Below, piece after piece: positions 894 to 62,368 of a stretch of DNA of 64,000 nt (its first letter is position 1; every line of letters starts with the position of its first letter). This stretch comes from a candidate division SR1 bacterium (GTDB lineage: Bacteria > Patescibacteriota > Gracilibacteria > Absconditabacterales > Absconditicoccaceae), in the NCBI GenBank assembly GCA_007115995.1, contig SKJI01000007.1:8989-72988 (forward strand), written 5' to 3'. Both the position numbers and the translations under genes were made by a program. Below the pieces are notes generated by a model. The model was not told the origin of the DNA. It ran no database searches and saw only the letters and a list, made by a program, of their open reading frames with translations.

Positions 894-1775
894 ATGAGTA
901 ACCCTATTATACATACCCCTGTTTTATTTCAAGAAGTGATGCAGTCTTGTCCTGATGATGCTCACTATGTGATGGATGGAACATTGTGACATGGATGACA
1001 TACGTTGTGATTCTTGGCACAGTGACGTACTGTTTTGGGAGTTGATAGAGATCAAGCAATGATTGCAAAGGCAAGGCAGACTATAGACCAGCAGTATTTT
1101 GATGAGAATCGTATTCAGATTGTCCACGGAAGTTATGCTGATTTTGAGCATATTAAGCAACAGACTGGCGTGCAACAGGTTGATTATATACTGATTGATA
1201 TTGGGGTGAATATGGAACATTTTAAGGATGCGTCTCGTGGGTTTAGTATTAAGCATGATGGACCACTTGATATGCGCTATGATACCTCACAGTGACAACC
1301 AGTTGCACTATGGCTTGCCCAAGCAACGTATCAAGATCTTGTAGACAATCTTGTGGAATATGCAGATTTTTCTGAGAAATATATCGATTGGATTGCAAAA
1401 GAACTCGTGCAACATAAAAAATCACATCCTTTTCATACAACCCATGATGTGCGTGATTGCGCAAAAAATCTTGGTATTAACGACAAAAAACTTGCTGTTA
1501 TTTTTCAGTCATGGAGAATTCAGATTAATAATGAACTTGATGAGTTTGATAGATTTTTAGAAACATTTGTAGACTATTTGAGACCATGATGAAGATGTTG
1601 TATTATTACCTATCATAGTGGAGAAGATAGACGTGCAAAAATAGCACTGAAATCACTTGCAAAACAAAATATTTGAATTATACTAACTAAACATGTTATA
1701 AAACCATCATGGCAAGAAATACAAGTAAATAAAGCAGCAAGAAGTGCGAAGATGAGACTATTTGAGAAAATATAA
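894..1775 (+). CDS. rsmH: 16S rRNA (cytosine1402-N4)-methyltransferase RsmH/MraW
   Basis: HTPVLFQEV..DGTL(G)HG(G)HT, with TGA at 987, 996 and 1008 on glycines. Also GPLDMRYD and YHSGEDRRAK. Track ORFs 1035.. and 1353.. are the same frame joined by TGA. Confidence 0.9.
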
Positions 1776-1799
1776 AGTTTTTGATTCCTAATCTTCACA

Positions 1800-2165
1800 A
1801 TGAATAAGCTCGCATTTGTCAAAAGTATGTCTAAACAATACCTATTGATGCAGCATACACTTAGACGCAATAAAAAACTGTTTAGTAGTGCTAAACTTAT
1901 TGTTGTGTCAATAATCTTCTTTTTTGTTGTAGGTGTCTATGCAGTCAATATTACATCAGCATCTACAAAATGATACTTCCATAGAATAGAAACAAGAAAG
2001 CAAGATGCTTTGGTTTTTGAGCGTAGTATTGTTGATTTGGAGGTTTTGCAATTAGAAAAAAGACTGCTCGATAATGTCTGATGAATCAATAGCAGTCGAT
2101 ATGGATCAACAGATCGTATGGTGATTATTCAAACTTATGAAACTGATTTAGTAATGAGACCATAA
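1800..2165 (+). CDS. Small single-pass membrane protein, FtsL-like by position
   Basis: 121 codons directly after rsmH. One hydrophobic helix (LIVVSIIFFFVVGVYAV) followed by a polar/coiled tail. No sequence-level identification. Confidence 0.4.
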
Positions 2166-3196
2166 AACTCTTCCAATAATACTCTGAGTTCGGCGTATTC
2201 CTTTGCTGCAGGAATGCGTTTTTTTATTTCTTTGTTGTACTCCAATCCAGAAATATAATTAAACAAATATTTACGAAATTCACGAGGAGTGTAGTATCCA
2301 TCGTACTTTTCAGGATGTGCATGGATATGATCTGCACGGTTCTCTAACTGGTGGAGTGTTGGCTGTATGAGTATCGTGTGTCCTGTTTTTTCAGTCGATA
2401 GAGCTCGTTCTTTGAAGTATTGTTCTTGTGCCATAGCGAGTGCAAGATGACGAAATATTACAGCAAAACGTTCTTCAACTGATGGAGTTGTTTCTACAAG
2501 TACTCGAGGGTTACCGATTGCGGCTTGCGCGATCATTACGCCATCGAGTGGACCAATACGATCAGCGCAATCTTGATACGTTCTGATTCATCAATTTCAA
2601 ATAATGACTGTATCTGAGCAGGCTTGTTTGAGTTTATAGATAAATGGTCGATCGACTTCACCGCTATGAGATTGTTTATAAGTTCTTCAATGGACACCAA
2701 TCATCCAGACATACTTACTTGCTTCGACTAGAAATGCAAATTGTTCTTCTTTGTCTGCTTCAGTGAGTCATGCTCTTGTTTTGAGACTAAACGGAGTAGT
2801 GATGCTTTGTGCGATCTGCTTGAGAATCTGCAGTGTTTTTTCTTTGTTTTTGAGCATACCGCTTCATGCTTCACATTTCATAATTTTGGGTGATGGACAT
2901 CACATGTTGAGTTCGATTCATCCGAACGAGTAGTGTTGATCAAGCGACTGCGCACATGCAACCAACGTCTCTACATTTCATCAAAAAATCTGTGCAATCA
3001 GTTCTGACTCGTAGTCAGTCTGCAAGAGATGCTTGACGACTCAGACAGGATTATGCATATACCCATCCGCACTCATAAACTCCGTCCAGAGCATCAGCGA
3101 CTCATGCGGTTTCTGATAACGCAAAAAAATCTCTTTACAGATTATTCTGTATGCACAGTCCGTTACTCAATCCATTGGCGCCAATCAAATCTTCAT
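2135..3196 (-). CDS. dus: tRNA-dihydrouridine synthase
   Basis: MKI(G)LAPMD(G)VTDCAYR, ELNM(G)CPSPK, H(G)RTYKQSHSGEVD[CGA]PFIYKLK, AIGNPRVL. 354 codons in one frame with many TGA. Confidence 0.85.
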
Positions 3197-3207
3197 GCTG
3201 TCATTAC

Positions 3208-3265
3208 AGTATATATTTTGCTTGATGATGCTAGATGAAATAGTGTGAATCGTGGCAAGAGTAGA
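3208..3265. repeat. Copy A of a ~58-nt conserved intergenic module, 12 nt upstream of the dus start
   Basis: agtatatattttgcttgatgatgctagatgaaatagtgtgaatcgtggcaagagtaga. About 85% identical to 5466-5524. Confidence 0.6.
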
Positions 3266-3488
3266 TTTACTTGACTTTGATGTATATATGTATTTAAAGT
3301 TATTACTTATGTTTGAGTGCTAAAATCTTGGCTTATTTAGTAGCGTCTGTCTTTTTGGATGTAAAACATCCATTAAGAAAACATAAGTGATAGCCATGTT
3401 TTTTAGCTCTTGATTGTTTTGTAATCAAGAGCATTTTTATAAAAAGCCACTAACATCATATCAGAAACACCATAAAATAATTCATTTC

Positions 3489-5354
3489 TTATTCAATCAC
3501 TTCAAACCCTTTCTCCACGTCCTCGTAGACGTGGAGTTTTTTGTTGTCTATGACCCAGATTATATTACTGACTTGACTGAGAAAGTCTCTATCATGCGAG
3601 ATGATGATACTTACGCCAGAAAATTGTTGTAACATCATCGTGATGCTTTCTTTGCTGAGGATGTCGAGATGGTTGGTTGGCTCATCCATAATGATAACGT
3701 CAGGTTTGCTGAGGAGCATTTTGGTGAGCGCAACTTTTGCTTTTTCTCCTCACGAGAGAGTATCGATACGTTGTTGTGCTTTTTCTGCACTCACTGACAA
3801 TGATCATAATATCCCAAGAATCTCTTTCATACTAACTCATGGTCAGAGGAGTTCATCAATGATGCTCTGTGATCCATTCATACTGTCAACAATCTGTCCA
3901 TACGAACCAATAATAAGATTTGGTGCGATCTTTACTGATCCAGCAAGCAGTGCTTGTTCTCAGAGAATTGATTTGATCAAGGTGGTTTTTCATACTCAGT
4001 TTTTTCCAATAATACTGATTTGCATCGATTTGGTGACAACGAGTTTGGGTGGTAAGCTCACGAGAGGATCTTGTAGGTGATAGCCTATGAGACCGTCGAA
4101 TAGCGTGAGAATTGTTTCAGGAAGTCTTTTTTCAGAACGTTTGAGGGTGAGAGAACGTGCAGTATGCATATCTTCTGGAGCATCGATTTTTTGGATTTTT
4201 TCGATCTGTTTAATACGACTTTGGACTTGACGCGCTTTACTTTCTTTGTATCTAAAACGATTGATAAACGCTTCTTGTTGGTCGAGATATTTTTGTTGAT
4301 TGGCGAATGCTTTTGATTGTTGTTCAAATAGAGCAATTTTTTGCTCGAGATAGTCGTTGTAATTTCCTTTGTATCGAAAGAGTTGGTGATTACTAATCTC
4401 TACGACCTGATCAAACACTGTATTCAAAAAACGTCTATCATGTGAGATACAGATCAAGGTTTTCCCTCGTGCTTTGCAAAACTGTTCGAGAAACACAATA
4501 CCTTCGATATCAAGATGGTTGGTTGGTTCATCAAGAATTAGGAGATCTACTTGTTGGAGGAGAAATTTTGCAATTTGGAGTTTGGTTTGTTCTCATCCAC
4601 TGAGTTTACTGATCGGTACGGTGAGTTGTTCATCAGTCAATCAAAATCTATGAAGAATCGTTTTTTGCAAATCATAGAGAACAAAACCATTGTGGTGTAC
4701 AAGCCATTCGGTAATGTCTGCTTGCTGTTCAAGGAGATGAACGCTGTCGGGATCTTCTGCTTCGATACGACGTTGAAGAGTATCGAGTATGTCCATTGCT
4801 TGCGTGATGTCTGGAAGCGCAGTGAGTATTTCTTCAAGGACCGTACGTGATGCATTTTCTCGAAAAATATCTTGCGAGAGAAACCCAATCTTGATATCTT
4901 TTTGGAGCAAAATTTCTCCATTATCGATCTCTTCACGTCAGAGCAAGAGTTTGAGTAACGTTGATTTACCTGCACCATTTTTACCAATGAGCGCAATTTT
5001 GCTCCCAGCTTGAATCTGGAGATCTGCTTGTTGAAACAGAATCGTTGAACCGAGTTGTTTATCAACTCATTTGAGCGTCACGATAGGTTGTTTTGTTGTA
5101 TCCTTGGATGATTGGAGTAACCATTTGGGAATGGTCGTGAAACGAGCAGGTTTTTTGGTACTGATTTCATCCAGTAGATCGATTTCAAAGATACTACTGA
5201 GATATTTGAGTAGAATAGGGAGTTTATTTGATGCTTTGGTTTTACTTCACATCTGCAAAAGACGTTCTTCACACAGATCTTCAAGTTCTTGCATTGAAAA
5301 GGCTGTTTGCTCATGAGCAAGACGTTCGAGATAGGGTTGAAGTCATGGAAGCAT
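3489..5354 (-). CDS. ABC-F family ATPase (two ABC cassettes) with an N-terminal extension of roughly 90 aa
   Basis: Track ORFs 3489.., 3996.. and 4641.. share one frame. Walker A IALIGKNGAGKSTLLKLL, a second cassette IIGKN.., MDEPTNHLD, and the inter-domain linker QQKYLDQQEAFINRFRYKESKARQVQSRIK. Confidence 0.85.
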
Positions 5355-5465
5355 CACAATAAATAATTGGTTAAAGCGTGTAGAATGGACTGGAAAATGG
5401 TATTGGTGTGATATTTTCGAATAAGAAAGTTTTCTTTTATGAGGGCATCTTTTATTGCAATATAT

Positions 5466-5524
5466 AGTATATATTTTGCTTAATGATACTAGATGAAATG
5501 AGATGAAAACGTGGCAAGAGCAGA
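5466..5524. repeat. Copy B of the ~58-nt intergenic module, 112 nt upstream of the ABC-F start
   Basis: agtatatattttgcttaatgatactagatgaaatgagatgaaaacgtggcaagagcaga. Confidence 0.6.
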
Positions 5525-5533
5525 AACTATCTT

Positions 5534-6217
5534 CTAATCAAACAACTTCCTCAACACTTCCAACGCAAACGACTGATCCAAAAAATACGGTGAGGTTGCG
5601 ATAGTGACGAATGTGGCGTGTTGGATGAGCGTTTTTGTGCGATTGATCGTCTCGTGCGTGTGATTATTGGTCATACGTGGATCTCGAAAATCAAGGTCAA
5701 TATCAAGAATAAATGGCTGGTCTGGTATAGGGTTGTGCAAGACAGCATATTCTGTTCTTCGTTGTTCGCATGATGTAATGATACCACTAGTTAGTGCCGG
5801 CTGTATAAAACTGCCCACAGTGCAGTAATACTGCGTGTATTCCCAAACATAGTCCATGTCGTCACGCTTATCACGTGCAAATGGCTTGAGCGGTGTTCAT
5901 AAGTCAGCATGCTGGTCGATATGGATAACTGGATATAGTCCATGCTGTTGTCGTCGCCATGCCCACCAATATAATGCATGATTATGATTATCAAAAATAA
6001 CCGCATGATCGAACAGATAGAGATGAGCAAGTCCTATATAAGAAACCACGATACCATGATCATCACGTTCACAAAACACGCAGGTATTTCATAGACTAAC
6101 CTGATCGATTGATTGGATAGTTTTTTTGGATGGAATAGAGATCGATGCAGATCATGTTTCTTGGACTCTTTGATCGTATGCAAAGGTATTATTCCCATGA
6201 TTCGAAGAAAGAATCAT
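5534..6217 (-). CDS. Hypothetical protein, possibly UPF0489-type (DNHNHAL / HIDQHADL motifs)
   Basis: Track ORFs 5534.., 5897.. and 6152.. are one frame joined by TGA. The frame stays open to 6364. I chose the Met at 6217; 6235 and 6364 are alternatives. Confidence 0.35.
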
Positions 6218-6414
6218 TGTGTTGGTGTAGTGCATTGAACGTATCAGTAAGCAAAAGTAAGACGAGTTGTTCTTTGGTGTGAAAAGTTTTCTAAGTCTAT
6301 AGTGATGAATAAATAGAGTATATCTAATGAGTAATCGTTTAACAAGTGAAAATATCCCTTGCATATTCTATCATTCTTCTTGCAAACTTTTCTATTCTCT
6401 ATACTATAATTCAT

Positions 6415-7833
6415 ATGACTCTACAACTCATCTTATACAATCAATTGTGAGTACAGTGTTGTCTGCCGTGAGCAGAGCGTTTTTTGTTTTTGTTGTCTGA
6501 AAAAACGCTGAAATCACCGTATGGTCCATTACAGTTCAATCAGTTTTCCAAAGAGATAGAACACAAAGCGAGTCAATGGTTTATCAAACATCTCAACGAG
6601 CAGGGAAAGCAGGCAGATCGAAAGGCAGTAACAAACTATACGCAATGACTTCTTGAGTACTGTCAAGAATATAGTGTCGATACGGTAATGATTATGCAAT
6701 CATCTGAACCATCACTGCAACGTACATTGCAAACAATGCAACACACGCTCAATGAGCATGGTATTTCGATACAGCGACATGAAAATACTCAATTTTTGCT
6801 CTCTCATAGCAGATTTCTCAAACGTTTTCCAAAACCACCAATAATGGAGACGTTTTATCGTTGGATGAGAAAAGAGTTTGATGTTCTCATGGATGGTAAT
6901 GCACCAGTATGATGACAGCGAAATTTTGATAAAGAAAATAGGAAGTTTGACAAACACTATCAAATGCAGCAGACAGAACAATGAGTGTCATATCCGACTT
7001 CTCGTCCTGAAGCAATAGCACTATTACAACAATTCGTTGATAAAAAAATTGATCGTTTTGGTGAGCTTGAGGATGCAATGTACACGCATGATGAGTACGT
7101 TCATCATTCGTTATTAAGTACAAGTATAAATTTCTGATTATTGACACCATGGGAGGTTATTGATGCGATCTCCCAGACTGACACTGCAATCAATAACAAA
7201 GAGTGAGCAATTCGTCAGATTTTGTGACGAAGAGAATATATGTATCACTGGTTTATGTTTTACCATGAGACGATCTATCATGACAATGCACTCAATCATA
7301 CAACACCACTGCCAGATTGGTTTTGGTGGCCAGACGACTCACCGCTCCAGATGTATTGTGTCAACCATGTACTCAAGACGGTCAAACGTACCTGATATAG
7401 CCATCATATTACCAGATTGATGATTATTTGAAATTTTAGTCTATTAATGTGATATAATCCACATGATGTCAATAAACGATTCTGGGAGATGTATGCTGAT
7501 GCATTCGAACGAGTGGTGACACCAAATGTACTCGGTATGTCACAGTTTGTAGATTGATGAAATCTAGCAACAAAGCCGTATATTTCTTCTGCAAACTATA
7601 TCAACAAGATGAGCGATTATTGCAAACATTGTTATTATGACCCTAAACAAAAGGAATGAGAACGTGCATGTCCAATGAACTATCTGTATCGAAATTTTGT
7701 TGAGAAACATCGTAGTTTTTTTGCAAGGCAGCCATATATCGTGAGTAATCTTAAGAAGATTGATATTACCAAGGTCAAACAGCAAGCACAAACATTTATC
7801 AACCAAATAACAACCGTATCCAAGCAATTATAG
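6415..7833 (+). CDS. Cryptochrome/photolyase-related protein of the FeS-BCP / DPRP type
   Basis: (G)(G)Q[CGA]NFDKENRK, ILG[CGA]REYMY, AFE[CGA]VVTPNVLGMSQF, and cysteine pattern C-x87-C-x2-C-x12-C (MYCVNH ... DYCKHC...ACPMNY). Ends at TAG 7831-7833. Confidence 0.8.
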
Positions 7834-7902: not shown

Positions 7903-9807
<1,905 letters not shown>

Positions 9808-9934
9808 TCAATATTTTTCTTGTAGTATGTGTACTTACGTATTCTACTGGTAGGATCTGTATGGTATCTGCTGGTAGAGTAGTGTTGCATGTCTTGTGCT
9901 TTATTCTTCTATCAATCGTGTCTCTATGTTTCAT

Positions 9935-10477
9935 ATGATTTCAGGAAAAAAAGTTGTTTATGATCATTGTACCATGATACACAATGATATGTTTGGTATA
10001 GAGGTAACATACACAGGTCAACAACAACTCTGACAGTTTTTTTTATATCCACAGCTTGATCAAAATAATCAGACTATTAGATATTATGCATTTGATGATA
10101 TTTTACAAAAAACTCAGTTTGAACAATTACTCAAGCTTCCATGAATTGGAGGCAAGACAGCTTATCATATCGCATCGTTACCTCATAATCTCTTAGAGGA
10201 TGCAGTAGAAAAAATGGATGTTGCTTTTTTTCAGTCCTTACCATGAGTCTGACCTAAGACTGCAAAAAGACTTTTGTTGGAGCTTAAACAAACAGTCTCA
10301 AAAGATGATATGATGACACTGTCTGGTGATCCAAAAATTGCTCAAGATATCACGAAATCGTTACAGTCGTTATGATATCAACAGCAAACAATCAAATTAT
10401 TACTACCAGATGTTCCATATCGTTTTGAAAAAGAACATATTCCTGATATTATGAAGCGATTGATAGATCATATGTAA
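9935..10477 (+). CDS. ruvA: Holliday junction DNA helicase subunit RuvA
   Basis: MISGK.., two HhH motifs LLKLP(G)IGGKTAYHI and LP(G)V(G)PKTAKRLLLELK. An alternative ATG lies at 9926. Confidence 0.85.
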
Positions 10478-10502
10478 GAATGTTTTATTTATTGTGCTAT
10501 TT

Positions 10503-12929
10503 ATGTTTGATTTTGGAATCTTATGAATGAATGCAAGGAACTTATCATATATAAGAAAGTTCAATAATAAAAAAGCAATTCGTTTGGCTGATAATAAAGA
10601 GAAAACAAAACGTTTTTTACATGCAAGATGAATACCAGTACCTGAAACATATGCACTTATTAAAACATATGATCAGCTTTGGTCGTTTAATTTTCGTGAT
10701 ATTGAAGCAGATCAGTTTATTATTAAACCAGTGAGATGAAGTAGAGGAAGATGAATTTACCGTGTTGGATGTCTCTGAACTATCAAACAGTCTACCATAA
10801 TGCAATTTTGACCACAAACTTTTGATTTCTCAATTTCTAAACATTCTCCATATGTTGATGAGTATTATAAAGTAGGTTCATCACTAGTAGACGATACAAC
10901 ATTAAGAAGGTATTTATTGGATATTTTATATTGAAGAAATTCACTTGTTTGAGATAAAGATCAGATACTTATAGAAGAACTGTTAGTTCCATGATGAGGA
11001 TTTGAACCATTTTGCGAGCATGGTTTAGCAGATATTAGAGTGATAGTGTTTAACTTGATTCCAGTTGCTGCGATGCTTCGTGTTCCTACGCCAGAGTCTG
11101 ATGGTAAAGCAAATCTTGATAGATGAGCACTATGAATGGGTATTGAAGTTTGATCATGAAAAGTGTATTGAATGTATGTATGATGAAAAATTCATCAAGG
11201 TCATTTCCCAGATAAATATAAATCGTTTGCTCATAAAACAATTCCTTATTGGGATGAAATTTTATTGTATTCTTCAAAAATTCAATATTTTGCAAACTTA
11301 TGATATTTAGCTCTGGATTGGGTTATTACACCTGATTGACCAAAATTGCTTGAAATCAATGCTAGAGCATGATTAAAGTTTCAGTTAGCTGCTCAGCTCC
11401 CACTCAAAAGAAGACTCGAAAAAATAGGTGATCTCAAGGTAGTTACACCAGAAAAATGAGTTGAAATAGCACAAACATTGTTTAGTCACCACAAAACTCC
11501 ACCAGTTGCAAGCTCAAAATTACTCTATTTGACACAACATGGTACATTAACATCACTGTATGAAGCAAAAGAAAAGGTGGTTACAAATGTGATTGTGCAA
11601 GTAGATATCAATAAACGTCATAGTTATGTCTCTGTAGATTTATGGCCTTTGGTCTTACAGACGAGAAAAACCATAGTAAAGACTGAGCAGTGAGTGGAAC
11701 TTTCACATATTAAACGAAAAAAATTAGAAAAACAATATAAACATAGAATAATTCTGTGAAGAGAAGCAGTAGCAGAATATTATGTCAAACCAATCAATAA
11801 AATTTTCACCTCACTTTCATTTATCAATCCCAAAAAAATCTTGCAGTCTGAAATTGATGATATTCATATTTTGGATCAAAGAGTCGATAAGCTAGCGAAA
11901 CAGATTAACATTTCTAGAATCTTGAAACCGATAAATTTCTTGGAAGAACTTGATACTTTTATAACTCGGAATGGGAAATATAATCCACATTTTCATTATG
12001 CTTGGCCAACAAATAAGTCATTACGTCTGTTAACCGAGCAGTCTGACATGCTTTTGGAAAAGTATTTTGGTACAAGTTGATTGCAAAGTAAATTTGCGCA
12101 ATTATTTAAGGAAAAAATTAGAGAAATTCAGAAGAAGGTTGAGCTGATAAGAGCATATAAATCACAAGATTTTCATCGTATTATTCAAGCAAATCAAGCA
12201 TTGTTTTGAAAACTTGATAATGATCTTATTCAACAAGCGTGAGCGTGTTTTATTCAGCATGTTGATCAAGATAGAACCATCTTATGACCAGTACTAAAAC
12301 GTGAAAGAATATTTGCATTGATAAAAACATACATGCATGAAAGATGATTACATGATGTGAAAATAATTTTTGATAGTAATGCATTATGAAGGATGTCTAT
12401 CAAAAGATGAAGAATCTTGACGATCAGAATTTCAGAAGTTGCTTGATTTAGAGAGCAAGAGCTTATTGCAACATTGGCGCATGAAGTGGATGTACATATA
12501 AGAAGATACCAATCTTGAATAGCCACATGATGGCATATCCTCAAAAATTGAACTGCATGATATATAGTAGATGAGGAATGACTTGCTGTATACAAAAGTT
12601 TACAACATCTTCCTGATGAGTATGAGAAAGTAGGAATGTATCAAAAATATTACTTGTTGAGTATTACCCAAGAAAAATCCTTTTCTGATTTGGTTTGAAT
12701 TATTAGATCGTTATCAAACAAATCATTAATGTGATCATTTAAGGCAGCCTTGAGATTAAAGAAGTGAATTACAGATACCGAGAGAGATGATTGAATAGTC
12801 TATAGCAAAACGAAAATATATCTCGAATGATATACTCATATTTGTAAACGAATAGAAGCGTGATGAGACGTTGAGCAACTTTTAAGTATTTGAAAAATAA
12901 AAACATCTGATTTATCTTATATACAATAA
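10503..12929 (+). CDS. Fusion protein (808 aa): N-terminal ATP-grasp (RimK/alpha-L-glutamate-ligase-related) domain plus C-terminal DUF1704/QEGLA-motif metallopeptidase-like domain
   Basis: N-terminus MFDFGIL(G)MNARNLSYI, IKPVR(G)SRGR(G)I, ADIRVIVFN, LEINARA(G)L. C-terminal half LAHEVDVHIRRY (HE-x3-H) and VDEE(G)LAVYKS (QEGLA-like). One uninterrupted frame, checked codon by codon at risky spots. Confidence 0.7.
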
Positions 12930-17366: not shown

Positions 17367-20300
17367 ATGGATCCAAAACATATCACCCAAGCAGTCTTGG
17401 AGTATCGACAAACAACTGATGCGTTTCAGCAATCAATCGTGATCAGATCACCAGCGATGAACTATACGTTTTTTGATGGGCCACCGTTTACAAGTGGAGA
17501 TCCGCATTATGGACATCTTTTGCAATCTACGATCAAAGATATGATTCCTAGATGGATGACTATGCGTGGGTATAGAGTACCGCGTGTATGGTGATGGGAC
17601 TGTCACGGTATTCCAGCAGAAAATTTCGTCAATAAGTCATTGTGAATCAGTTCCAAGAAGCAAATAGAAGAAGAGGTAGGAATAGAATCATATATAGAAG
17701 CATGTAGAAGTATGGTCAATAATGTCAATGAAAACTGGTCCAAAGTTGTCGATCAGTTATGACGTTGGGTTGATATGGATAATGCATATTTCACCATGGA
17801 CAATGCATATATGGAAACGGTGATCAATATATTTTCAGATCTCTATCACAGAAATCTGATCTATAAGGGATTTAAAGTGTTGTGATACTCTTGGGCGTTG
17901 TGAACATCACTATCAAATCATGAAATCAACGAATGATACGAGATGAGACAAGATCCAGCCGTGACGATTGCGTTTCCTGCACTGACGGTCTGAGAGCATG
18001 ATCGTTTTCAAACAAGCGAGCTCGGTGCAGTGCAATGTGTTGCATGAGTGATAGAGCAAGATGGAAAATTGCTTCAAGTCTATGATACAAGATCATCAGT
18101 CTGGTATTATCCATGATGAAAAGTTGAGAAAGGTGAAACGAAAGAACAAGCACTTGCAAGAGAAATTAACGAAGAGATTTGAGTAACCGTTACAACGAGT
18201 ACGTTGCTTGGTGTCTTGCATGTGCCGTTTCGTGGTATTCTTTATGAATTATCGTATTTTTCTGTAACGATTGATGGAGTGCCAACAAACTGTGAACCTG
18301 ATAAGCAAGGTGCTGTCGAATGGGTCGAGCAGATACCATTCGATAATGAACTCTGATTTGCACTCAAAGTAGGTGATTTGCTCTTAGACGATCGCAAACA
18401 AATCGAGCATGATTTCAAGGATTATTTTTTCATAAAAAATAAATACTACGAACTTCCGTGATTATCGAGTATGATTCCATCGATGCTTGCACGAACAACA
18501 ACGCCGTGGACGCTTCCATCTAATATGTTTCTCGCAGTCAATGCTTCTATTTGGTATGCAGTGGTATACGATCATGAAAAACAAGCATTGTTTATCATCG
18601 CTCAAGAAGCGCTTGATCGTGTCTATCCAGACAAGAAAGCATATCAAGTGTTGTTTGTCACATCATGATCTCACTTGGTGGGATTAAAATATGAGCCACC
18701 GTTTTCATACTATCATGACGATGAGACGATCGCAAACGAGTATAAACAACAAGTACATCGTGTAGTTCATGCTGATTTTGTGACAACTGATGCAGGGACC
18801 GGAATCGCCCATGAAGCACCTGCGTTTGGTGAAGATGATTATAATCTAGTCTGTACGATCTTACCCAAAGATCACGCGCAAGACTGGTTGTTTGATCCAA
18901 TTGATGATCATGGATCGTTTACTGATTGTGCGCCTGATCGATCATGAATGAATGTAATCGAAGCAAATAAACTGATTATTGCACATCTTAAACAAACAGG
19001 GAGATTATTTAAACATGAAACAATCAATCATAGTTATCCGCACTGTCCGCGTACAGGGACACCGCTGATCTACAAAGCAATTCAATCTCGATTTGTCCAA
19101 GAAGAAGACCTCAAAACACAGACAATCCCAGCTGCAGAACAGATGCGTTTTGTACCAGACTCTATCAAGAAAAGATTTATCAATGGGCTTGAATCAGCAC
19201 CAGACTGGAATATATCAAGAAGTAGATATTGGTGATGTCCGTTACCTGTCTGGGAAAATCCTGATAATCCAGAAGAAAGACTCGTCGTCTGATCACTTGA
19301 TGAGATATTTCAATACAATAAGCCTGCACAACAACTCACCAAGGTGATCTTTGTGAGACATGGGAGAACTGACTATAATGACAAAAAACGAGTTGACTGT
19401 CTTCCAGCTGACAAAGCACAACTCAATGAACTGTGACGTCAACAAGCTGCGTTACTGCCTGAACATTTTGCGTGAGTACAGATTGATCATATCTATTCGT
19501 CACCGATGAGTAGATGTAAAGAGATGATAGCACCATTAGCAGCAGAGCGTGATTGCACTGTGCACTATGATGAGAGAATACAAGAAATTGGAAATTATGG
19601 CTTTCAAGACAAAGTGTTTGATTGTAGCACTATCTCATGGAACGACCAGCCAGTAGATGGTGCAAGCGGTGAGAGTATACAAGCCGTTGCAACAAGGGTC
19701 GAAGCGTTTTTCCAAGAGATCGTTGCAAAGCACCCATGAGCGTGTGTGGTGATTTGTTCACATGGTGATCCTATAGCATTGATGAGAAAAATGATCTACC
19801 AAAAAGACTATGCATATGCAAAATCACGTTTGTATCTTGATAATAAATCGCTCGAGCAATTGCCTGTCTGTGTCGATTATGTACGGCCTGAAACAGGACA
19901 GTATGTTGATTTACATAGACCGTATATTGATACAGTACTGTTACATCATCCAGAGACGGGGCATATTCTGCAGAGAATACCAGAAGTTCTTGATTGTTGG
20001 TTTGAGTCGTGAAGTATGCCATTTGCACAGCATCATCGATTGAAATCTGAACAGTCTGATGAGACCGTACCAGTCGCTGATTTTATTGCAGAATGACTCG
20101 ATCAGACGAGATGATGGTTTAGAGCATTGTATGTGTTGTGACATGCGTATGTGTGACAATCAGTCTATACTGATACTGTTGTGACGGGACTAATTCTCGC
20201 TGAAGACGGAAAGAAAATGTCCAAAAGACTCAATAATTTCCCAAATCCATTGGAGTTATTAGATCAGTATGGTGCAGATCCACTGAGATTGTACTTGTTT

Positions 20301-21383
20301 GCATCACCGGTAGTCAGAGCAGAAACGTTGAGGTTTGCTCAGTCTGGTGTCGAACAGATGTTTAAGGACGTGGTAATTCCACTCCATAACGTCTGGAATT
20401 TTTTGAGTACATACGCTGCTGTTGATGCATGGAAACCAGCAGAAAGTACAGTCTATTTTATGAGACATGCACATTGTCATCATACTGAAGAATCACCAAG
20501 AACGAACGAAACACCTATCAGTAAGCTCTGACAGCAACAACTCCAAGAACAATCGTTTATCGAAGAAGTGTTGAGAGTAAACCCTGATATTATCATCACA
20601 TCACCTGTCCAAAGAACACAAGATACAGCTGCTGCAGTCCAAAATATCCTTGATCGTTATCTCTGAAAAACTGTTGAAATCCGTATTACCGATGATTTAT
20701 CAAGATGAATGACAGAAGAAAATGCTGGAGATATTATACAACGCTTCCAAGAGCAGTATCCATGACAAACTATCCTGTTGGTTAGTCACAAAAAAAGATT
20801 CCGTATGCTGCGAAAAGTCTTGACTGGTTATGAGCATTCTGTGCATACGCATGAGATGATGGAGCAGTTGTTACTTGAAAATACTCAGATTGTGCCGATT
20901 CCATTGCAGCTCATACATAATGAATTAGATCAGTGGATATATGCAGAGTTGCATCGTGTTATTATGCTTGTTGATGAACATCTTGCATCATATGCAATAG
21001 AGCATGCTACCAAAGTGTTGATAGGATTTGTCGATAGTTTGACGAACTGGTATGTGCGTAGATCAAGAAGAAGGTTTTGGGCTTCAGGTATGGAACAAGA
21101 TAAGCGTAGTGCATACCAAACGTTATGGGATGTGTTACAGACCTACTTGCGTCTTTTGGCACCGTTTGCACCGTTTACGAGTGAGTATCTTTGGCAAGCT
21201 ATGCAGATGCCATGATCAGTCCATCATGCTTCTTGGCCAATCTGATCAAAACAACGAATTAATCAACAACTTCTTGAAGAAGTAGAGTGTGTAAGAAAAA
21301 TAATTTCTTGAGCAATGTACATAAGGGCAAAGAATCAGATAAAAATCAAACAACCATTATCATCGTTGGAATTTTCATTTTAG
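17367..21383 (+). CDS. ileS: Isoleucyl-tRNA synthetase (type 2, eukaryote-like class I core) carrying three in-frame inserted domains
   Basis: [13 protein letters not shown], (G)WDCHGIP, LA[CGA][19 protein letters not shown](G)CPLPVW, CWFES(G)SMPFAQ, E(G)LDQTR(G)[26 protein letters not shown]. Eight track ORFs are all frame 0. I verified 17580-18480, 19200-19515 and 19980-20190 codon by codon and found no TAA/TAG. Confidence 0.9.
17991..18470 (+). other. Nudix hydrolase domain inserted in IleRS, just before the [11 protein letters not shown] segment
   Basis: Perfect Nudix box G-x5-E-x7-REUxEExGU: (G)[20 protein letters not shown](G)V at 18117-18185. Confidence 0.75.
19341..19900 (+). other. 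Histidine-phosphatase (phosphoglycerate-mutase-like) domain inserted in IleRS
   Basis: [13 protein letters not shown] (RHG at 19356-19364), ..[12 protein letters not shown].., [10 protein letters not shown]. Lies between LDEIFQYNK and DLHRPYID of the IleRS core. Confidence 0.65.
20455..20900 (+). other. Second, more divergent histidine-phosphatase/SixA-like domain inserted in IleRS
   Basis: [10 protein letters not shown] (RHA at 20463-20471), [22 protein letters not shown]. Lies between DAWKP and [11 protein letters not shown] of the anticodon-binding region. Confidence 0.45.
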
Positions 21384-45172: not shown

Positions 45173-45201
45173 TTGACAAATAAAGTATTGACGTGTATAC
45201 T
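45173..45201 (+). promoter_or_regulatory. Strong sigma70-like promoter candidate (TTGACA-N17-TATACT)
   Basis: ttgaca 45173-45178 and tatact 45196-45201, 34 nt before ATG 45235. Confidence 0.45.
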
Positions 45202-45234
45202 ATAGATAAGTTGTTCTTTTACTCAAGACATCAC

Positions 45235-48200
45235 ATGGTTGATACGATACGATGCAAAAATCAAATATGACTACTTCATCAGCAATATCCTTGATTGATC
45301 AATAGTTTTTCTCGTTTTACACAACAAGCATGGTGAGACTATAAGGAGTTTTGTTTGCATGATTTTTGATCGACTGTTGCGATTAGAACGTTTTTGTTAA
45401 ATCCTTGAGATTTTCAATTTGTGGCAACAAATCATCTATGAGAGCATGGGTCATGAGAACATGGAGCTGCTGATGAGCACTCAGTTGAGGGTGAAGAAGG
45501 GACTGTAATACTACAAGAATCGTCATGATCATTTAATGATTTTTGGGATTGACTGTGAGATAATATGTGATCATTTTTTTCTTTTGCCTTATGGTTTATT
45601 CTCTGAGCGATTATTACTATTTCATTATTTAAAGCTATCAAATACTTTTTGGTTTTGATGTATGATGTCTTTAATGCAAAGAGAATTGAATACTTCAAAG
45701 TAATCCAACCTAGATGAGACTCGAAACTTGATCGTGAAGTCCAAAGAGAACTTGCAAAAGATATGAAAGAAAAGATTTCCAGAATGGCTCAAGTCTATGC
45801 AAATGTTCATAAATTATGAGAATTGAGTGTTGTTGATGGTATTTTGAGGAGATTATTTAAAAAGCCCAAAATTACTTTTTTGTTACACTATGAAAAATGA
45901 AAAATAGAGTTTATCATCGGGACATATCCAGAATATAGAAAAATTGTAGAATCAGCGATAGCAGCGCAGTATTCAGATTCTTCATTACAAACGATTGAAA
46001 AACCTCATTTCTTCTCTCATCAATATAGCGATCTCATGCCACTTCAACCAATAAAAGAGTGAGTCTATCCAATTAGAATGTTTAGACAAATGGAAGATGA
46101 CCCGATTAATAATATTATCGATTCGATGGCCAAAATTCCTCAATCTGACACCTTTACAATGATGTTAACGGTAAGACCTGAAAGATGAGCTTTTAATCAA
46201 AGAGCACAAAAATTTGCAGATGCACTGTATAGAAAGGATGATTCTGTAACAAAATGAACAAGATTTTTTCAGTATTTGCTACCTTGGAACTTATTGAAAT
46301 TTCTCACAAGATGACCAAGTGAGGAGTTGGTACAAAGATTTACTGGTGACAAGACACGTTGAGATCCTATGATTCGTATGGTCAAGGCAGAAGAAGAAGC
46401 ACTCAATAATATGGCAGAAGAAGCTGGTAAGAAAGCATTTTATTCATGACTGATGCTTTTATCGAGTTCGCCACAACCAAAAAAAGCAAGAGAAAATATT
46501 TATAATTTGGTCAGTGCGTTTACTGTGTATAGTGATGAGTACAATAATGCATTAGATCAGCCAGAAGTGCTGTCTGATATTTTTGGCGTGATTGTGAAAC
46601 CATTATGGAGAGCAAGTATTACGTTTTTGATTCCGTGATTTTTTTATAAGAAAAACGTTTTTTCTGTGAGTGAACTTGCATCATTATTCCATCTCCCTGA
46701 TGGGATGTACAATCGTTCACCGGCAATTTCTTGGATGGATTACAAAATGCTAGCACCACCTGATAACTTACCGCTGCTCAAAGAAGAAAATCCTGATTTC
46801 TTTATGACATGAATTATTGCTGAATCGTACAAATGATGAAATATTTCCAAGATTTTATCTGACAAAATTCATCCAGCAGTGTGAATCAAAGAGGAAATAC
46901 ACGAAGAGAAAATTCCAGTCGATGCATCGTACGTCTTACAAGAGTGAGAAGAGTTGCGTGAGGAGGATGACTCGCTTTATGTGATACGCAAAACAACAAC
47001 AAAAAAAGCAGCACTCAAGATCTACAATGATTGAATCTTGTTATGATTGAACGTGTATAGGAATAAGTTTTCTCCGGTCTATATGAAGCAAAAAGATAGA
47101 ACGAGACATCACTATATTATTTGAAAATCGGGTACGTGAAAATCGGTCTTTATCGCTGCGCTTGCAAGACAGGATATCTGGGCAAATGCATGAGTCTGCG
47201 TTGTTGATCCGCATGGTGATTTGGTAGAGGGAATTTTGGAGTATGTACCAAAACATAGAGCAAAGGATGTGATATATTTCGATGCAGGAAATGCTGAGCG
47301 TCCAATGTGACTCAATCTGTATCAAGTAAAATCGTTTAATGAGGCAGATAGAGTCGTCAACGATGCTGTTGAAATTTTCATCAAGATGTTTGGTCCAGAG
47401 ATTTTTGGTCCGCGTATCCAAGAATATTTTAAGTATGGAAGTTTGACGTTGTTGGAGGATATGGAAGATAGAGCGACACTGATCGATGTGCCAAGGTTGT
47501 TTACTGATGAGTGATATAGAGAGTACAAAATTGCAAAAGTAAAAAATCCAGTGGTCAGAAACTTTTGGGACAAAACATATAACGCAATGGGTGATCGTGA
47601 GAAACAAGAAATTATTCCATATTTTACTTCGAAATTTGTCTCGTTTACCACAAACTGACTGATTAGAAACATTATCGGACAAACTGAATCAGCATTCAAT
47701 TTTAGGGATGTAATGGATAACTGAAAAATCTTATTGATTAACTTAAGTAAAGGTATGATTTGAGAGCTGAATGCACAGTTGTTATGAATGATTATCGTGT
47801 CCAAAGTGTATAATGCTGCTATGGGAAGAGCAGATATGGCAGAAAAAGATCGTAGATTCTTTTACTTATATGTGGATGAGTTCCAAAACTTTGTAACTGA
47901 TACGTTTGCAGATATTTTATCTGAAGCAAGAAAGTATAAGCTTTGTTTGATTATGGCACATCAGTATATTGCACAGCTTGATTGATCAGCATGAAACAAT
48001 ATCTGAGAGTGAAAGAGTAAAGTGAAGGATGCGGTATTTGGTAACGTTTGAACGATGCAATCATTTAAAGTCGGTGCCCCAGATGCAGAGTTTTTGGAAA
48101 AGGAATATGCTCCTGTGTTGAGTGCGCAAGATATTTTGTGAATTGCAAACTACAAAGCATATATAAAACTGAATATCAACAATACTACCTCAAGAGTATT

Positions 48201-48441
48201 TAGTCTCAATGCATTATGGACGCAGGATTATAAAAATGAAAGAGTTGCAGAGATTCTAAAACAATACTCAGAAAAGAAATACGGACGTAAGAGAGAGTTT
48301 GTCGATGCAGAAATTGCAGCCAGGTTGTGAATACTTGGTGATAATCATGAAATTCCCTGAGTAGATGACTTACAGCTTGAAAGTGATACTGCATGAGACA
48401 CAGAATCAGAGTCTGATTGAGATGAGAATCAATCAGAATAA
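45235..48441 (+). CDS. Large VirD4/TraD-type (type IV coupling protein-like) P-loop ATPase, paralog 1 (1068 aa)
   Basis: TM segment FFLLPYGLFL(G)AIITISLF, Walker A HHYII(G)KS(G)T(G)KSVF, VVDPHGDL, LLINLSK(G).., FFYLYVDEFQNFVTDTFADILSEARKYKLCLIMAHQYIAQL. Checked codon by codon over 46081-47160. An alternative later start (Met near 45565) is possible. Confidence 0.75.
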
Positions 48442-59723: not shown

Positions 59724-59899
59724 TTCAGACTGTAAAGCATTTATCATAAAAAATGAGTAGTCAACTATTTTTTTCTAGAAAATACACTTGTAAATTATAC
59801 TCTGAATGAAGAGATTACTAATTTTGCTCTTTGCACTGTTTTCAGTATACTAAGAGTACTGATAATAGAATAATTTTTATTTGTAGTGAAGTTTGCTTG

Positions 59900-62368
59900 A
59901 TGATATTATCAATTGCTGAGCGTTTATGATGAGTACTTGCATCGATCTTTGGTACAAAGCAATCACAGAATAATTCTATATGTTTTGAAATTATCCCATA
60001 CAAAGAAAATGAGTTTGGGCAAGCACATTGGTGATCATTCCTTGCAAATTTTTCTAGTTTTCAGGAACATCTCTATTTTTCAATCGAATGAAACACGAAG
60101 CAGATCAAACTCTTTATGTATGCGCCAGAAAGCTATCAAGAATACATAAGAAATATTTTTTATGCAACATTTCCTACCAGTGATATAAAAATTCACCCAC
60201 AAAAATCACTCAAAAAACACCCATCTAATCTTAAATTTTCTCATGACAGTGTGTTTTATGAAACACATGAATTTATGAAATGATGAGAATATGTTGATCC
60301 ATTCAAAGATGTTCTTTCGCTTTTTTGATCAATTCCTCAAGAATGAACACTTTCGTTACTATATAGTTGTCAATTTAAGGTAAAAAAGACTTTTTTTCAA
60401 AAATGTTTAGCGTTGCGAAAGAAATTTTTTAGTAACGATAAAAGTGAAAAAAACACAAATGATAAAGAAGAAGTAAGTCAACAAGAAAATGTAAAAAAAG
60501 TTTGAAAAGATGTAATATTTGCTTTACAGTATTTTTTACATTTAGATCCGCAATGATATATAAATAAAGTAAATACAGACATTAATCATGTTTTTGATAA
60601 ATTTTTACAACAAGGAACAGTAAAGCCATCACAGTCTATTCATTGGGTGAGTACTAACTTAGATGCATTTATCAATCTCTTTCATATCCCAACTAAATCA
60701 TTCTTAAACAATACTTTACATTATATTCCATATCGTAAGTTAGAACATCCTGTTAATTTGCCAATGTTATCAAATACATCAAGTGATGATCTAACTATTT
60801 TATGAAAAACAGAATACAAAAACCAATGAATTGAGTTTGGTATCAAAACAGAAGATAAGTTTAGACATGTATATATTGTGTGAAAAACGTGAATGTGAAA
60901 ATCTACATTCATTTCAAATATGGTGAGAAGTGATATGCAGACTAATCATTGATTAGCAGTGATTGATCCTCATGGCGATCTTATTGATGATGTATTAGTA
61001 CATATTCCATCTCATCGTATCAATGATGTTGTGGTTTTTGATGTGAGTGATACTGCATATCCTGTCTGATTTAATATTTTGGAATTTAATACTCCTGAAG
61101 AAAAAACGCTCGTAGCATCTGCTGTTGTTTCAATCTTCAAAAAACTCTTTGCGCACAGTCGATGACCAAGATTAGAGTACATCCTCAGAAACGTTATGTT
61201 GTCTGTGCTTGACTATCCAAATACAACATTGATGCATGTGATGCGTATGCTCAACGACAAAAAATTTAGAGAAGAAGTATTGACACACGTATCTGATCCA
61301 GTTGTGATGAAATTTTGGAGAGATGAGTATGACAAACGACAACCAAGACAAGTTCAAGAGGCAGTCTGACCGATCGCAAACAAAATTTGACAGTTTTTAT
61401 CATCTCCAGTTGTGAGGAATATTTTTGCTCAGCCCAAGAGTAGTTTGCAGTTAAGAAAAATTATGGATGAAGGGAAAATATTGCTTATTAATCTTTCTAA
61501 ATGAAAGATATGAGAAGATAATGCGAGTATGCTGTGATCTTTTCTTGTCTCTAAATTCCAAATTGATGCTATGTCTAGAGCTGATGTAGATTATAATATG
61601 AGAAAAGATTTTTATTTGTATATTGATGAGTTTCAAAACTTTGCAACTGACTCATTTGAAAGTATCTTATCAGAAGCAAGAAAGTATCGTTTATCATTGA
61701 TTGTTGCAAATCAGTATACTTCTCAAATTCAAGAAAATGTCAGAAATGCAATTTTTGGGAATGTCGGGACTATCGTGAGTTTTGGTCTGTGATATGATGA
61801 TGCAATGCTTATGTCTCAACAGTTCAAAGAGCTTATTTCTCCCAATGATTTACTTTCATTGCCTAAATTTAAAGCATATGTAAAGCTTATGGTTGATTGA
61901 GTTACTACTGACCCTTTTACTATGGGGACATTTCCTCTACCATTACCTGAATCATGACCAGAAATTAAAGAAAAAATTCTCAAACAGTCAAGACAGCGTT
62001 ATGCAACTGAAAGAGAAAAACTTGAGTCGCTCTTGCAAGCTCGAATGGAAAAGCAGTTTACAGAGTCAGAAAAAGTCATCGAGAAAGTGCAACAAGAAAC
62101 TCTCAAACAAGATGGTACAACATTTAGTATAGATGATTTAAAAGTATGAGAACGATATGACTGATATGTGAAGCTAAAATATAATTATTGATTATTTGTG
62201 ACTGTAAAAGGTGTAGAGTGATTATTACATAAATCGTTGGTTAAGGTGCCAGACACCTTATCATCATGGAAAGACTTGTATGTTATTTGAGATAAGATAT
62301 CTGTCAAGGTTGACTGATTCAAAGAAATTGAGTGAGAAAAGAAAATTGTTTGGACGCAAAAAGATTAG
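59900..62368 (+). CDS. VirD4/TraD-type coupling-protein-like P-loop ATPase, paralog 2, with a C-terminal S1 RNA-binding domain (822 aa)
   Basis: Walker A HVYIV(G)KT(G)M(G)KSTF, VIDPHGDL, LLINLSK(G)KI(G), FYLYIDEFQNFATDSFESILSEARKYRLSLIVANQYTSQ. Tail V(G)E[CGA]YD(G)YVKLKYNY(G)LFVTVKGVE(G)LLHKSLV...V(I)(G)DKISVKVD. Codon-checked over 59939-60900. Confidence 0.75.

What the first reader, a model, noticed from the sequence alone, without database searches (positions are those of the whole stretch)
59900..62368. Type IV coupling-protein-like ATPase fused to a C-terminal S1 RNA-binding domain
The protein has the VirD4/TraD-type core (Walker A GKTGMGKS, VIDPHGDL, YIDEFQNF...EARKYRLSLIVANQY). Its last 75 or so residues read as a canonical S1/OB fold (VGE.YDGYVKLKYNYGLFVTVKGVEGLLHKSL...VIGDKISVKVD). 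Coupling proteins normally hand DNA-protein substrates to a secretion channel, and none of the other T4SS genes (VirB4, VirB6, relaxase) is in this window. An S1 domain points to a single-stranded nucleic-acid substrate. In an episymbiotic CPR cell this could relate to nucleic-acid uptake or exchange with the host.
Basis: partly seen in the sequence, partly recalled or inferred. Interest (0 to 1): 0.6.

Follow-up and report, generated by a model that had tools for sequence, protein, structure and literature searches.

The report
Anchorless coupling-type ATPase with S1 tail
This is one real 822-codon gene (TGA read as glycine) for a conjugation-type "coupling protein" motor that nearly all ultra-small CPR bacteria keep as a core gene; this lineage's copy has no membrane anchor and carries an RNA/ssDNA-binding S1 domain, which makes it a testable candidate for handling single-stranded nucleic acid.

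Summary
Observation confirmed. With genetic code 25, window 59900-62368 (+) is one 822-aa protein. Its layout is a VirB4-NTD-like domain, a TrwB/VirD4-type ATPase with an all-alpha insert, a charged linker and a canonical S1 domain (Pfam 27 bits against a cut-off of 22; confident AF2 beta-barrel).

The core plus N-domain is a near-universal orthologue in the phylum (300 of 301 genomes, 41-55% identity), and is better conserved than this genome's own three paralogues. The S1 tail is lineage-specific. It occurs in all 14 other sampled genomes of the window's TGA-recoded family and in two other families of the class. It occurs in none of 40 orthologues sampled phylum-wide; ten of those carry a treble-clef zinc finger instead. 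Most orthologues have an N-terminal TM-like segment (37 of 40), but this lineage does not (2 of 64).

The gene sits among housekeeping genes with no conserved partner. A VirB4/VirB2-pilin cluster, ComEC, DprA and FtsK lie elsewhere in the genome, and no relaxase was found.

The function is inferred: probably a hexameric translocase or receptor for single-stranded nucleic acid, possibly working with the chromosomal T4SS.

Orphan VirD4-like genes in Patescibacteria are published (PMC12102498); the S1/anchorless architecture is not, in what I searched. This scan has already noted the same architecture in other genomes.

The parts
59900..62368 (+). Whole CDS: 822 codons plus a TAG stop, read with TGA=Gly (33 TGA codons)
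   Evidence: start confirmed
59900..59950 (+). N-terminal helix (aa 1-17). It is not hydrophobic enough for a TM segment and occupies the position of the anchor seen in other lineages
   Evidence: AF2 helix 2-17. Hydropathy scan: no TM-like segment from ATG 59900
59969..60679 (+). Alpha/beta N-domain (aa ~24-260) resembling the N-terminal domain of VirB4/TrwK. It is conserved across the phylum, either fused or as a separate upstream ORF
   Evidence: Model pLDDT 87.6. The top five Foldseek hits are all TrwK/VirB4 (best E 3.2e-4, prob 1.0, TMq 0.41). N-domain HMM found in 40 of 40 orthologue loci and in all four own paralogues
60791..61939 (+). T4CP-type P-loop ATPase (aa 298-680): nucleotide-binding domain plus all-alpha insert
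   Evidence: Pfam TrwB_AAD_bind, TraG-D_C and DUF87. Foldseek TrwB TMt 0.65 and Cag-beta 0.55. The family profile hits only TrwB and DotL in the PDB
60881..60904 (+). Walker A motif GKTGMGKS (three of its four Gly are TGA codons)
61094..61585 (+). Helical insert (aa ~399-562), equivalent to the all-alpha domain of TrwB
   Evidence: Secondary structure of the model. About 455 columns align to TrwB-deltaN70, which is 424-427 residues long
61613..61642 (+). Walker B region YLYIDEFQNF
   Evidence: D576, E577, F578, Q579, N580 and F581 are invariant in 41 phylum-wide orthologues
61673..61717 (+). EARKYRLSLIVANQY motif
   Evidence: E592, R594, K595, Y596, L598, Q605 and Y606 are invariant across the phylum
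61940..62137 (+). E/K/Q-rich, mostly helical linker (aa 681-746); about 150 aa longer in many homologues
   Evidence: pLDDT falls to 56-63 around aa 710-730
62138..62356 (+). C-terminal S1 (OB-fold) domain, aa 747-819
   Evidence: Pfam S1 27.0 bits against a cut-off of 22. bS1 hits in the PDB. Beta-barrel in the model. 35% identity over 65 aa to the third S1 repeat of this genome's own rpsA. F766 and H777 are invariant in 64 homologues

Best explanation
The gene encodes a soluble, ring-forming P-loop motor of the type IV coupling protein (VirD4/TrwB) clade. It is this lineage's version of an orthologue that nearly every Patescibacterium keeps. The family's basic plan is: TM anchor, VirB4-NTD-like domain, T4CP nucleotide-binding domain with an all-alpha insert, and a variable C-terminal tail. 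In this lineage the anchor is absent, and the tail is a canonical S1 domain held on a ~65-residue charged linker.

Shown here: the gene is real and conserved; the four-part architecture; its phyletic distribution; the absence of an anchor; and the presence elsewhere in the genome of a VirB4/VirB2-pilin T4SS cluster, ComEC and DprA.

Inferred: (1) it forms a hexamer and hydrolyses ATP, like TrwB; (2) the VirB4-like N-domain docks it to the membrane platform of the chromosomal T4SS, standing in for the missing anchor; (3) the six tethered S1 domains capture single-stranded nucleic acid (RNA or ssDNA) and present it to the central channel. In this reading the S1 tail plays the substrate-selecting role that variable C-terminal tails play in TraD or DotL. 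The direction of transport, import from the host or export, is not determined.
For: Identity of the motor: Pfam T4CP families score above cut-off. TrwB_AAD_bind is found in 41 of 41, TraG-D_C in 40 of 41 and T4SS-DNA_transf in 25 of 41 orthologues. A profile of the orthologues hits only TrwB (4.1e-5) and DotL (3.2e-4) among PDB sequences. The best global superpositions are on TrwB (TMt 0.65) and Cag-beta (0.55).

N-domain: it resembles the VirB4/TrwK NTD and always accompanies the core, fused or as the adjacent ORF, in 40 of 40 loci.

S1 domain. The tail is 53-70% identical within the family, against 47-64% for the longer alignments of the protein, so it is under selection. The canonical aromatic and His positions (F766, H777) are invariant.

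Core status: found in 300 of 301 phylum genomes at 41-55% identity.

Possible T4SS partner: a VirB4-like gene is found in 288 of 301 of the same genomes, and this genome has VirB4-like and VirB2/TrbC-pilin genes on contig C27.

Other tails: other lineages carry a different small module, a treble-clef zinc finger, in 10 of 40. This fits a swappable substrate or adaptor-binding tail.
Against: The gene is never seen next to T4SS genes in the contexts read. Published work finds only 148 of 5,713 Patescibacteria T4CP homologues near virB4 (PMC12102498). Anchor-deleted T4CPs are non-functional in conjugation (PMC7431656), so a naturally anchorless copy may work differently. No MobA-type relaxase was found. 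The target and VirB4 are both near-universal, so co-occurrence cannot discriminate between models. In Southlakia, one T4CP-like paralogue is dispensable for epibiotic growth and the other is essential, and I could not establish which is the orthologue. The resemblance to the VirB4 NTD is weak (TMq 0.41). Nucleic-acid binding by the tail has not been tested.
Confidence: 0.42

Rival explanations
1. It is a cytoplasmic nucleic-acid translocase that works without the T4SS. It might process ssDNA brought in by the type IV pilus/ComEC route (a ComFA-like role), act in recombination or repair as HerA does, or remodel or thread RNA as a Rho-like ring with an OB-fold loader would.
For: The protein is soluble with no anchor. 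It sits in housekeeping neighbourhoods with no conserved partner. ComEC, DprA and PilB/PilT-type ATPases are present. The S1 tail is most similar to ribosomal S1 repeats, which bind RNA. Its very high conservation is more typical of a core cellular function.
Against: The fold and profiles are specifically of the T4CP type, with an all-alpha domain, and are not HerA, FtsK or helicase-like. Most orthologues outside this lineage are membrane-anchored, and the N-domain resembles that of VirB4; both features point to a membrane machine. FtsK is present, so it does not replace FtsK. In Southlakia, loss of comEC abolishes competence without affecting viability (review PMC12857230).
Confidence: 0.3
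2. It is a coupling protein for protein effectors. On this view the S1 fold and the zinc fingers of other lineages are protein-protein or adaptor-docking or autoinhibitory modules, and do not bind nucleic acid.
For: The Patescibacteria T4SS lacks a relaxase and has been proposed to export proteins (Wang et al. 2023). The C-terminal tails of TraD and DotL bind proteins (own knowledge; the variable C-terminal domain is noted in PMC7431656). OB folds can bind proteins.
Against: The tail keeps the S1 signature, including the invariant aromatic and His positions used for RNA contact in canonical S1 domains (the role of these residues is from own knowledge). S1 domains score above the Pfam cut-off in three separate families.
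Confidence: 0.15
3. It is a component of an anti-phage defence system (HerA-like or MADS mad8-like ATPase).
For: PADLOC hits: mad8 at 3.8e-13 and several HerA models. NCBIfam gives weak antiphage-HerA hits.
Against: The hits cover only the generic P-loop core and score far below the family cut-offs. The gene is a vertically inherited, near-universal orthologue, which is not the patchy pattern of an island gene. No defence partners lie next to it.
Confidence: 0.03

Closest known systems
Type IV coupling proteins (TrwB of R388, VirD4, TraD, TraG, DotL, Cag-beta)
   Same: The nucleotide-binding domain has Walker A and B motifs and an all-alpha insert. Pfam PF10412 and PF12696 match. Sequence-profile hits in the PDB are to TrwB and DotL only, and the best global structural superposition is on TrwB. 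It also has a variable C-terminal tail, as a few T4CPs do.
   Different: It has no N-terminal transmembrane domain. It has a ~260-aa VirB4-NTD-like domain in front. The tail is an S1 nucleic-acid-binding fold, which none of the T4CP papers I retrieved mentions. It is a chromosomal core gene that is not linked to a relaxase or to mating-pair-formation genes.
Orphan VirD4-like T4CP homologues of Patescibacteria (Quinonero-Coronel et al. 2025, PMC12102498)
   Same: This is the same gene family: 5,713 homologues in 2,918 of 3,035 genomes, nearly all encoded far from virB4, with possible exaptation noted by the authors.
   Different: That paper does not describe the N-domain, the fused and split forms, the loss of the anchor, or the S1 and zinc-finger tails (zero occurrences of 'S1 domain' or 'DUF87').
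VirB4/TrwK N-terminal domain, and the archaeal CedB/CedD DNA-import ATPases
   Same: The N-domain's only significant structural matches are to the TrwK/VirB4 NTD. CedB and CedD are HerA-clade motors with VirB4-NTD-like front domains, and they are needed for DNA import (PMC11868833). NCBIfam CedD gives a weak hit at 9.3e-11.
   Different: The motor here is of the T4CP type and not the VirB4/HerA type; it does not hit PF03135 or PF19044. The Ced proteins are often membrane-anchored and have no S1 domain.
Ring motors that carry an OB-fold or zinc-finger nucleic-acid loader (Rho factor, ComFA); an analogy only, from own knowledge
   Same: The design principle is shared: an ATP-driven ring with a small nucleic-acid-binding module attached.
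   Different: The ATPase families are unrelated (RecA-type and DEAD-box), and no homology is claimed.

Membership tests
Type IV coupling protein (VirD4/TrwB/TraD) | T4CP-type nucleotide-binding domain with Walker A and B motifs (the feature that defines the family, PMC7431656) | tested here: met
   Pfam PF10412 and PF12696 score above cut-off and are found in 41 of 41 and 40 of 41 orthologues. The orthologue profile hits only TrwB and DotL in the PDB.
Type IV coupling protein (VirD4/TrwB/TraD) | All-alpha domain inserted in the NBD | tested here: met
   The AF2 model has a helical insert at aa ~399-562. Nearly the whole of TrwB-deltaN70 aligns, with TMt 0.65. This rests on a prediction, not an experiment.
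Type IV coupling protein (VirD4/TrwB/TraD) | N-terminal transmembrane domain (present in most members, not all) | tested here: not met
   No TM-like segment is found from the confirmed start. Only 2 of 64 close homologues have one, against 37 of 40 orthologues elsewhere in the phylum. The scan is a simple hydropathy window and not a dedicated predictor.
Type IV coupling protein (VirD4/TrwB/TraD) | Works with a T4SS channel and a relaxase or substrate | tested here: inconclusive
   VirB4-like and VirB2-pilin genes exist on another contig. No MobA-type relaxase was found. There is no linkage in any context read. Physical interaction cannot be tested here.
S1 domain (PF00575) | Profile score above the curated cut-off | tested here: met
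   27.0 bits against 22. It is also detected in the orthologues of G392 (36.2 bits) and G316 (37.4 bits).
S1 domain (PF00575) | Five-stranded OB-fold beta-barrel | tested here: met
   The model has strands at 752-760, 764-769, 772-777, 799-810 and 813-819, and a helix at 790-793, with pLDDT about 72-89.
S1 domain (PF00575) | Binds single-stranded RNA or DNA | not testable with these tools
   There is only indirect support: the invariant F766 and H777 align with the conserved F and H of bS1 domains.
VirB4 (CagE_TrbE_VirB / P-loop_TraG) | VirB4-type ATPase domain | tested here: not met
   The target does not hit PF03135 or PF19044. The genome's only VirB4-like gene is on C27.
VirB4 (CagE_TrbE_VirB / P-loop_TraG) | VirB4-like N-terminal domain fold | tested here: inconclusive
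   The top five Foldseek hits for the isolated N-domain are all TrwK/VirB4, but the match is weak (E 3.2e-4, TMq 0.41, rmsd about 8 A).
HerA / FtsK translocases | HerA or FtsK-specific profile or fold as the best match | tested here: not met
   DUF87 matches, but it is a broad family that matches in all 14 control genomes. FtsK_SpoIIIE scores only 16 bits, below its cut-off. No HerA or FtsK chain passes in the profile search of the PDB. A true FtsK is encoded elsewhere in the genome.

The most novel reading that the evidence does not exclude
In these predatory or episymbiotic, nucleotide-auxotrophic bacteria, the anchorless S1-tailed motor could be the cytoplasmic end of a T4SS/pilus-based import route. 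In this reading it reels in host-derived single-stranded RNA or DNA for nucleotide salvage or gene acquisition. The S1 domains would grip the incoming strand, and the VirB4-like N-domain would dock the ring onto the channel. That would make it a bacterial counterpart of the archaeal Ced import system, with RNA as a possible cargo.
Probability: 0.1. Interest if true: 0.85.

Novelty: new variant of a known kind. Interest (0 to 1): 0.5.

Why it matters
Patescibacteria make up a large share of bacterial diversity, and they depend on hosts for nucleotides and other building blocks. How material moves between host and epibiont is an open question. Their T4SS is essential for epibiotic growth, yet it has no known substrate or recognised coupling protein in its gene cluster. 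This family is a near-universal, highly conserved coupling-type motor. Its exchangeable tail is a single-stranded nucleic-acid-binding domain in one lineage and a zinc finger in others. That offers a concrete, biochemically testable handle on what these machines transport. The natural contrast between anchored and anchorless, and tailed and untailed, versions amounts to a ready-made comparative experiment.

Tried and rejected
1. Upstream TTG start at 59831, which would add a hydrophobic N-terminus. Rejected: the homologue consensus begins at ATG 59900, and three relatives have no start codon upstream.

2. A stand-in for FtsK. Rejected: a true FtsK is on C48.

3. A defence-system ATPase. The PADLOC mad8 and HerA hits cover only the generic P-loop core, and the distribution is that of a core gene.

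4. A conserved operon partner. None was found. Synteny (CTP synthase, thioredoxin, MetRS, target, ValRS) holds only in the closest relative and is lost in Ca. Absconditicoccus praedator and SR1 RAAC1.

5. Co-occurrence with VirB4 as a test of T4SS dependence. Uninformative, because both are near-universal.

6. A single origin of the S1 fusion. Unresolved: the label needs three changes on the core tree, but the AU test does not reject one clade (p = 0.66).

7. Linking the target to the Southlakia Tn-seq phenotypes. The query family I chose (f25) turned out to be Dojkabacteria, not Saccharimonadia, and that used the only named-genome scan.

8. Fold search of the S1 tail alone.

Full report
OBSERVATION. 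Under table 11 the region is broken into ORFs of at most 79 aa. Under table 25 (TGA=Gly) one frame opens from 59831 to 62368, with 33 in-frame TGA codons. The flanking MetRS, ValRS and CTP synthase genes need the same code. TGA supplies 33 of the 45 glycine codons of the gene, including three of the four in the Walker A motif. The consensus of 64 homologues begins there. In three relatives the upstream in-frame extension contains no start codon.

DOMAINS. Pfam gives DUF87 (1.3e-9), TraG-D_C (6.5e-7), TrwB_AAD_bind (7.3e-7) and S1 (5.8e-6; 27.0 bits against a cut-off of 22, residues 747-808), all above their cut-offs. NCBIfam's best hits are a VirD4-like family, the archaeal DNA-import ATPase CedD and several ribosomal S1 and PNPase models, all far below their family cut-offs. 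By sequence, the only PDB hits below E 0.01 are S1 domains of ribosomal protein bS1 and S1 homologues.

An AF2 model built on 64 homologues is confident (pLDDT 86.4, pTM 0.75). It shows:
- an alpha/beta N-domain (aa ~24-260);
- a P-loop domain (298-680) with a helical insert (~399-562);
- a helical, charged linker;
- a five-strand beta-barrel with one short helix (752-819).

Foldseek's best global superpositions of the model are on TrwB (TMt 0.65 over ~455 columns) and Cag-beta (0.55). VirB4 and HerA hits have good E-values but poor global superposition. A profile of 41 phylum-wide orthologues hits only TrwB (4.1e-5) and DotL (3.2e-4) among all PDB sequences. The core is therefore of the T4CP type and not HerA/FtsK only.

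The N-domain modelled alone (pLDDT 87.6) finds TrwK/VirB4 N-terminal domains as its top five hits and nothing else below E 0.01 (best E 3.2e-4, TMq 0.41). This match is weak but specific. No TM segment is present.

DISTRIBUTION. At least 8,000 database homologues exist. The 120 closest (46-96% identity) are named DUF87, HerA-domain or T4SS DNA-binding proteins of Absconditabacterales, SR1, Gracilibacteria and Peribacteria by their depositors. All of them carry the N-domain and the S1-like tail at the very C-terminus.

In 301 genomes sampled across the phylum, the core (query residues ~253-715) is found in 300, at 41-55% identity and E 1e-80 to 1e-170 in all but one of them. That is better than the match to this genome's own three paralogues (1e-90 to 1e-111). 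It is thus a near-universal orthologue.

In 40 orthologue loci fetched from across the phylum, the N-domain is always present: fused in 20 and encoded by a separate ORF immediately upstream in 20. All four paralogues of this genome share the N-domain.

Tails differ. S1 occurs in none of these 40. A treble-clef zinc finger (PF23477) occurs in 10. The rest have tails of 22-369 aa with no recognised domain.

Within the window's class, a search with the tail alone gives strong matches (E 1e-20 to 1e-32, 53-70% identity) in all 14 other genomes of the window's own TGA-recoded family. In 13 of them the match lies directly downstream of the core on the same contig and strand. Two further families that use the standard code (G392 and G316) carry Pfam-positive S1 tails of 36-37 bits.

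On a tree of the core alone, the main S1 lineage is one clade (100/100) on a long stem (0.67). The two other S1 bearers sit among tailless relatives. The label needs three changes on that tree, but a single S1 clade is not rejected (AU p = 0.66).

An N-terminal TM-like segment is present in 37 of 40 phylum orthologues but in only 2 of 64 S1-lineage homologues. The median maximum hydropathy over the first 60 residues is 2.07 against 0.50. G392 has both an anchor and S1, so the two traits are separable.

GENOME CONTEXT. The genome is 1.0 Mb in 50 contigs and 94.5% complete. The target lies between MetRS and ValRS. This synteny is kept only in the closest relative and is lost in Ca. Absconditicoccus praedator and SR1 RAAC1.

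Elsewhere the genome encodes:
- a T4SS-like cluster on contig C27, with a giant PKD-repeat surface protein, an unannotated 379-aa protein, a VirB4-like ATPase (P-loop_TraG 1.8e-25) and a protein ending in a VirB2/TrbC pilin domain;
- PilB/PilT-type ATPases;
- ComEC, DprA and FtsK.

No MobA-type relaxase was found. A VirB4-like gene is found in 288 of the same 301 phylum genomes, so co-occurrence cannot separate T4SS-dependent from T4SS-independent models.

LITERATURE. Quinonero-Coronel et al. 2025 (PMC12102498) report VirB4 in 2,417 and VirD4-like T4CPs in 2,918 of 3,035 Patescibacteria genomes. Only 148 of 5,713 T4CP genes lie near virB4, and the authors raise possible exaptation. They do not mention S1 or the N-domain.

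Wang et al. 2023 (PMC10633639) show that the Southlakia T4SS is essential and note that its cluster lacks a recognisable coupling protein and relaxase. Their Tn-seq table lists two T4CP-like genes with opposite behaviour: SEML1_0142 is essential at all time points and SEML1_0293 is non-essential. I could not establish which is the orthologue of the target.

T4CPs are defined by their NBD. Most have a TMD and an all-alpha domain, and a few have a variable C-terminal domain. TMD-deleted mutants fail in conjugation (PMC7431656).

The archaeal CedB and CedD proteins are motors with VirB4-NTD-like fronts that are needed for DNA import (PMC11868833).

None of the coupling-protein papers retrieved mentions an S1 domain.

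MECHANISM (inferred). By homology to TrwB, the protein should form an ATP-driven hexameric ring. The N-domain is always present and resembles that of VirB4. Most orthologues are anchored, and a T4SS is co-conserved. Together these make recruitment to the chromosomal T4SS platform the most economical reading. The swappable C-terminal module would then select the substrate, and in this lineage that module is a canonical single-stranded nucleic-acid binder on a flexible tether. The tail is at least as conserved as the rest of the protein and keeps the invariant aromatic and His positions, so it is functional.

The main rival is a T4SS-independent cytoplasmic role in handling incoming DNA or RNA. 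It is favoured by the lack of an anchor and of any gene linkage. A protein-adaptor role for the tail and a defence role are less likely.

NOVELTY. The gene family is published, but as an unexplained orphan. The specific architecture is not described in what I could search: a VirB4-like front, a T4CP motor, a lineage-specific S1 or zinc-finger tail, and loss of the anchor. Earlier notes of this scan flagged the same architecture in other genomes. I re-tested their main claims independently here, so this window is a further example and not a first sighting.

Noticed in passing
window 45193-48441 (+): A second T4CP-like paralogue of 1082 aa lies in the same window. It hits TrwB_AAD_bind, DUF87, TraG-D_C and T4SS-DNA_transf, shares the N-domain (E 7e-38), has a TM-like segment at aa 125-143 and has no S1 tail. 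The genome has four such paralogues in all; the others are at C1:21319-23751 and C4:21519-23768.
   Followed up: partly
window 17367-21383 (+): A 1338-aa class I aminoacyl-tRNA synthetase (tRNA-synt_1 plus Anticodon_1) has a NUDIX domain (aa 228-320) and a histidine-phosphatase domain (aa 660-829) embedded in it. This is an unusual architecture.
   Followed up: no
window 10494-12929 (+): An 811-aa fusion of a sugar-transfer-associated ATP-grasp domain (2.4e-45) with a MATCAP-type carboxypeptidase domain (1.2e-14).
   Followed up: no
L012 (G000:C27:26000-39523), genes at 2880-7193, 7937-9076, 9208-11292 and 11216-12283: This is the genome's T4SS-like cluster. It has a 1437-aa PKD-repeat surface protein, a 379-aa protein with no Pfam hit, a VirB4-like ATPase, and a 355-aa protein whose last ~70 residues are a VirB2/TrbC pilin domain. 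The contig ends 2 kb further on.
   Followed up: partly
L020-L054 (phylum orthologue loci): In half of the sampled lineages the N-domain and the motor are separate adjacent ORFs, and in the other half they are fused. All ten treble-clef zinc-finger (PF23477) tails found occur in the split forms.
   Followed up: partly
L059 (G316:C14:9800-15000), ORFs 1074-3149 and 3201-3872: The orthologue of G316 is broken into two ORFs of 691 and 223 aa (two TAA stops in the match). The second ORF carries the end of the core and the S1 domain. This could be a pseudogene, a sequencing error or a split gene.
   Followed up: no
window 59900-62368: TGA encodes 33 of the 45 glycines in this gene (73%), so it is by far the preferred Gly codon here.
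   Followed up: no
L063-L142 (search for related loci titles): Many relatives of the family f25 orthologue are deposited as 'uncultured Candidatus Saccharibacteria bacterium'. Named MAGs at similar identity to the query (66-81%) are labelled Dojkabacteria or WS6. This suggests generic mislabelling of the TPA assemblies.
   Followed up: no
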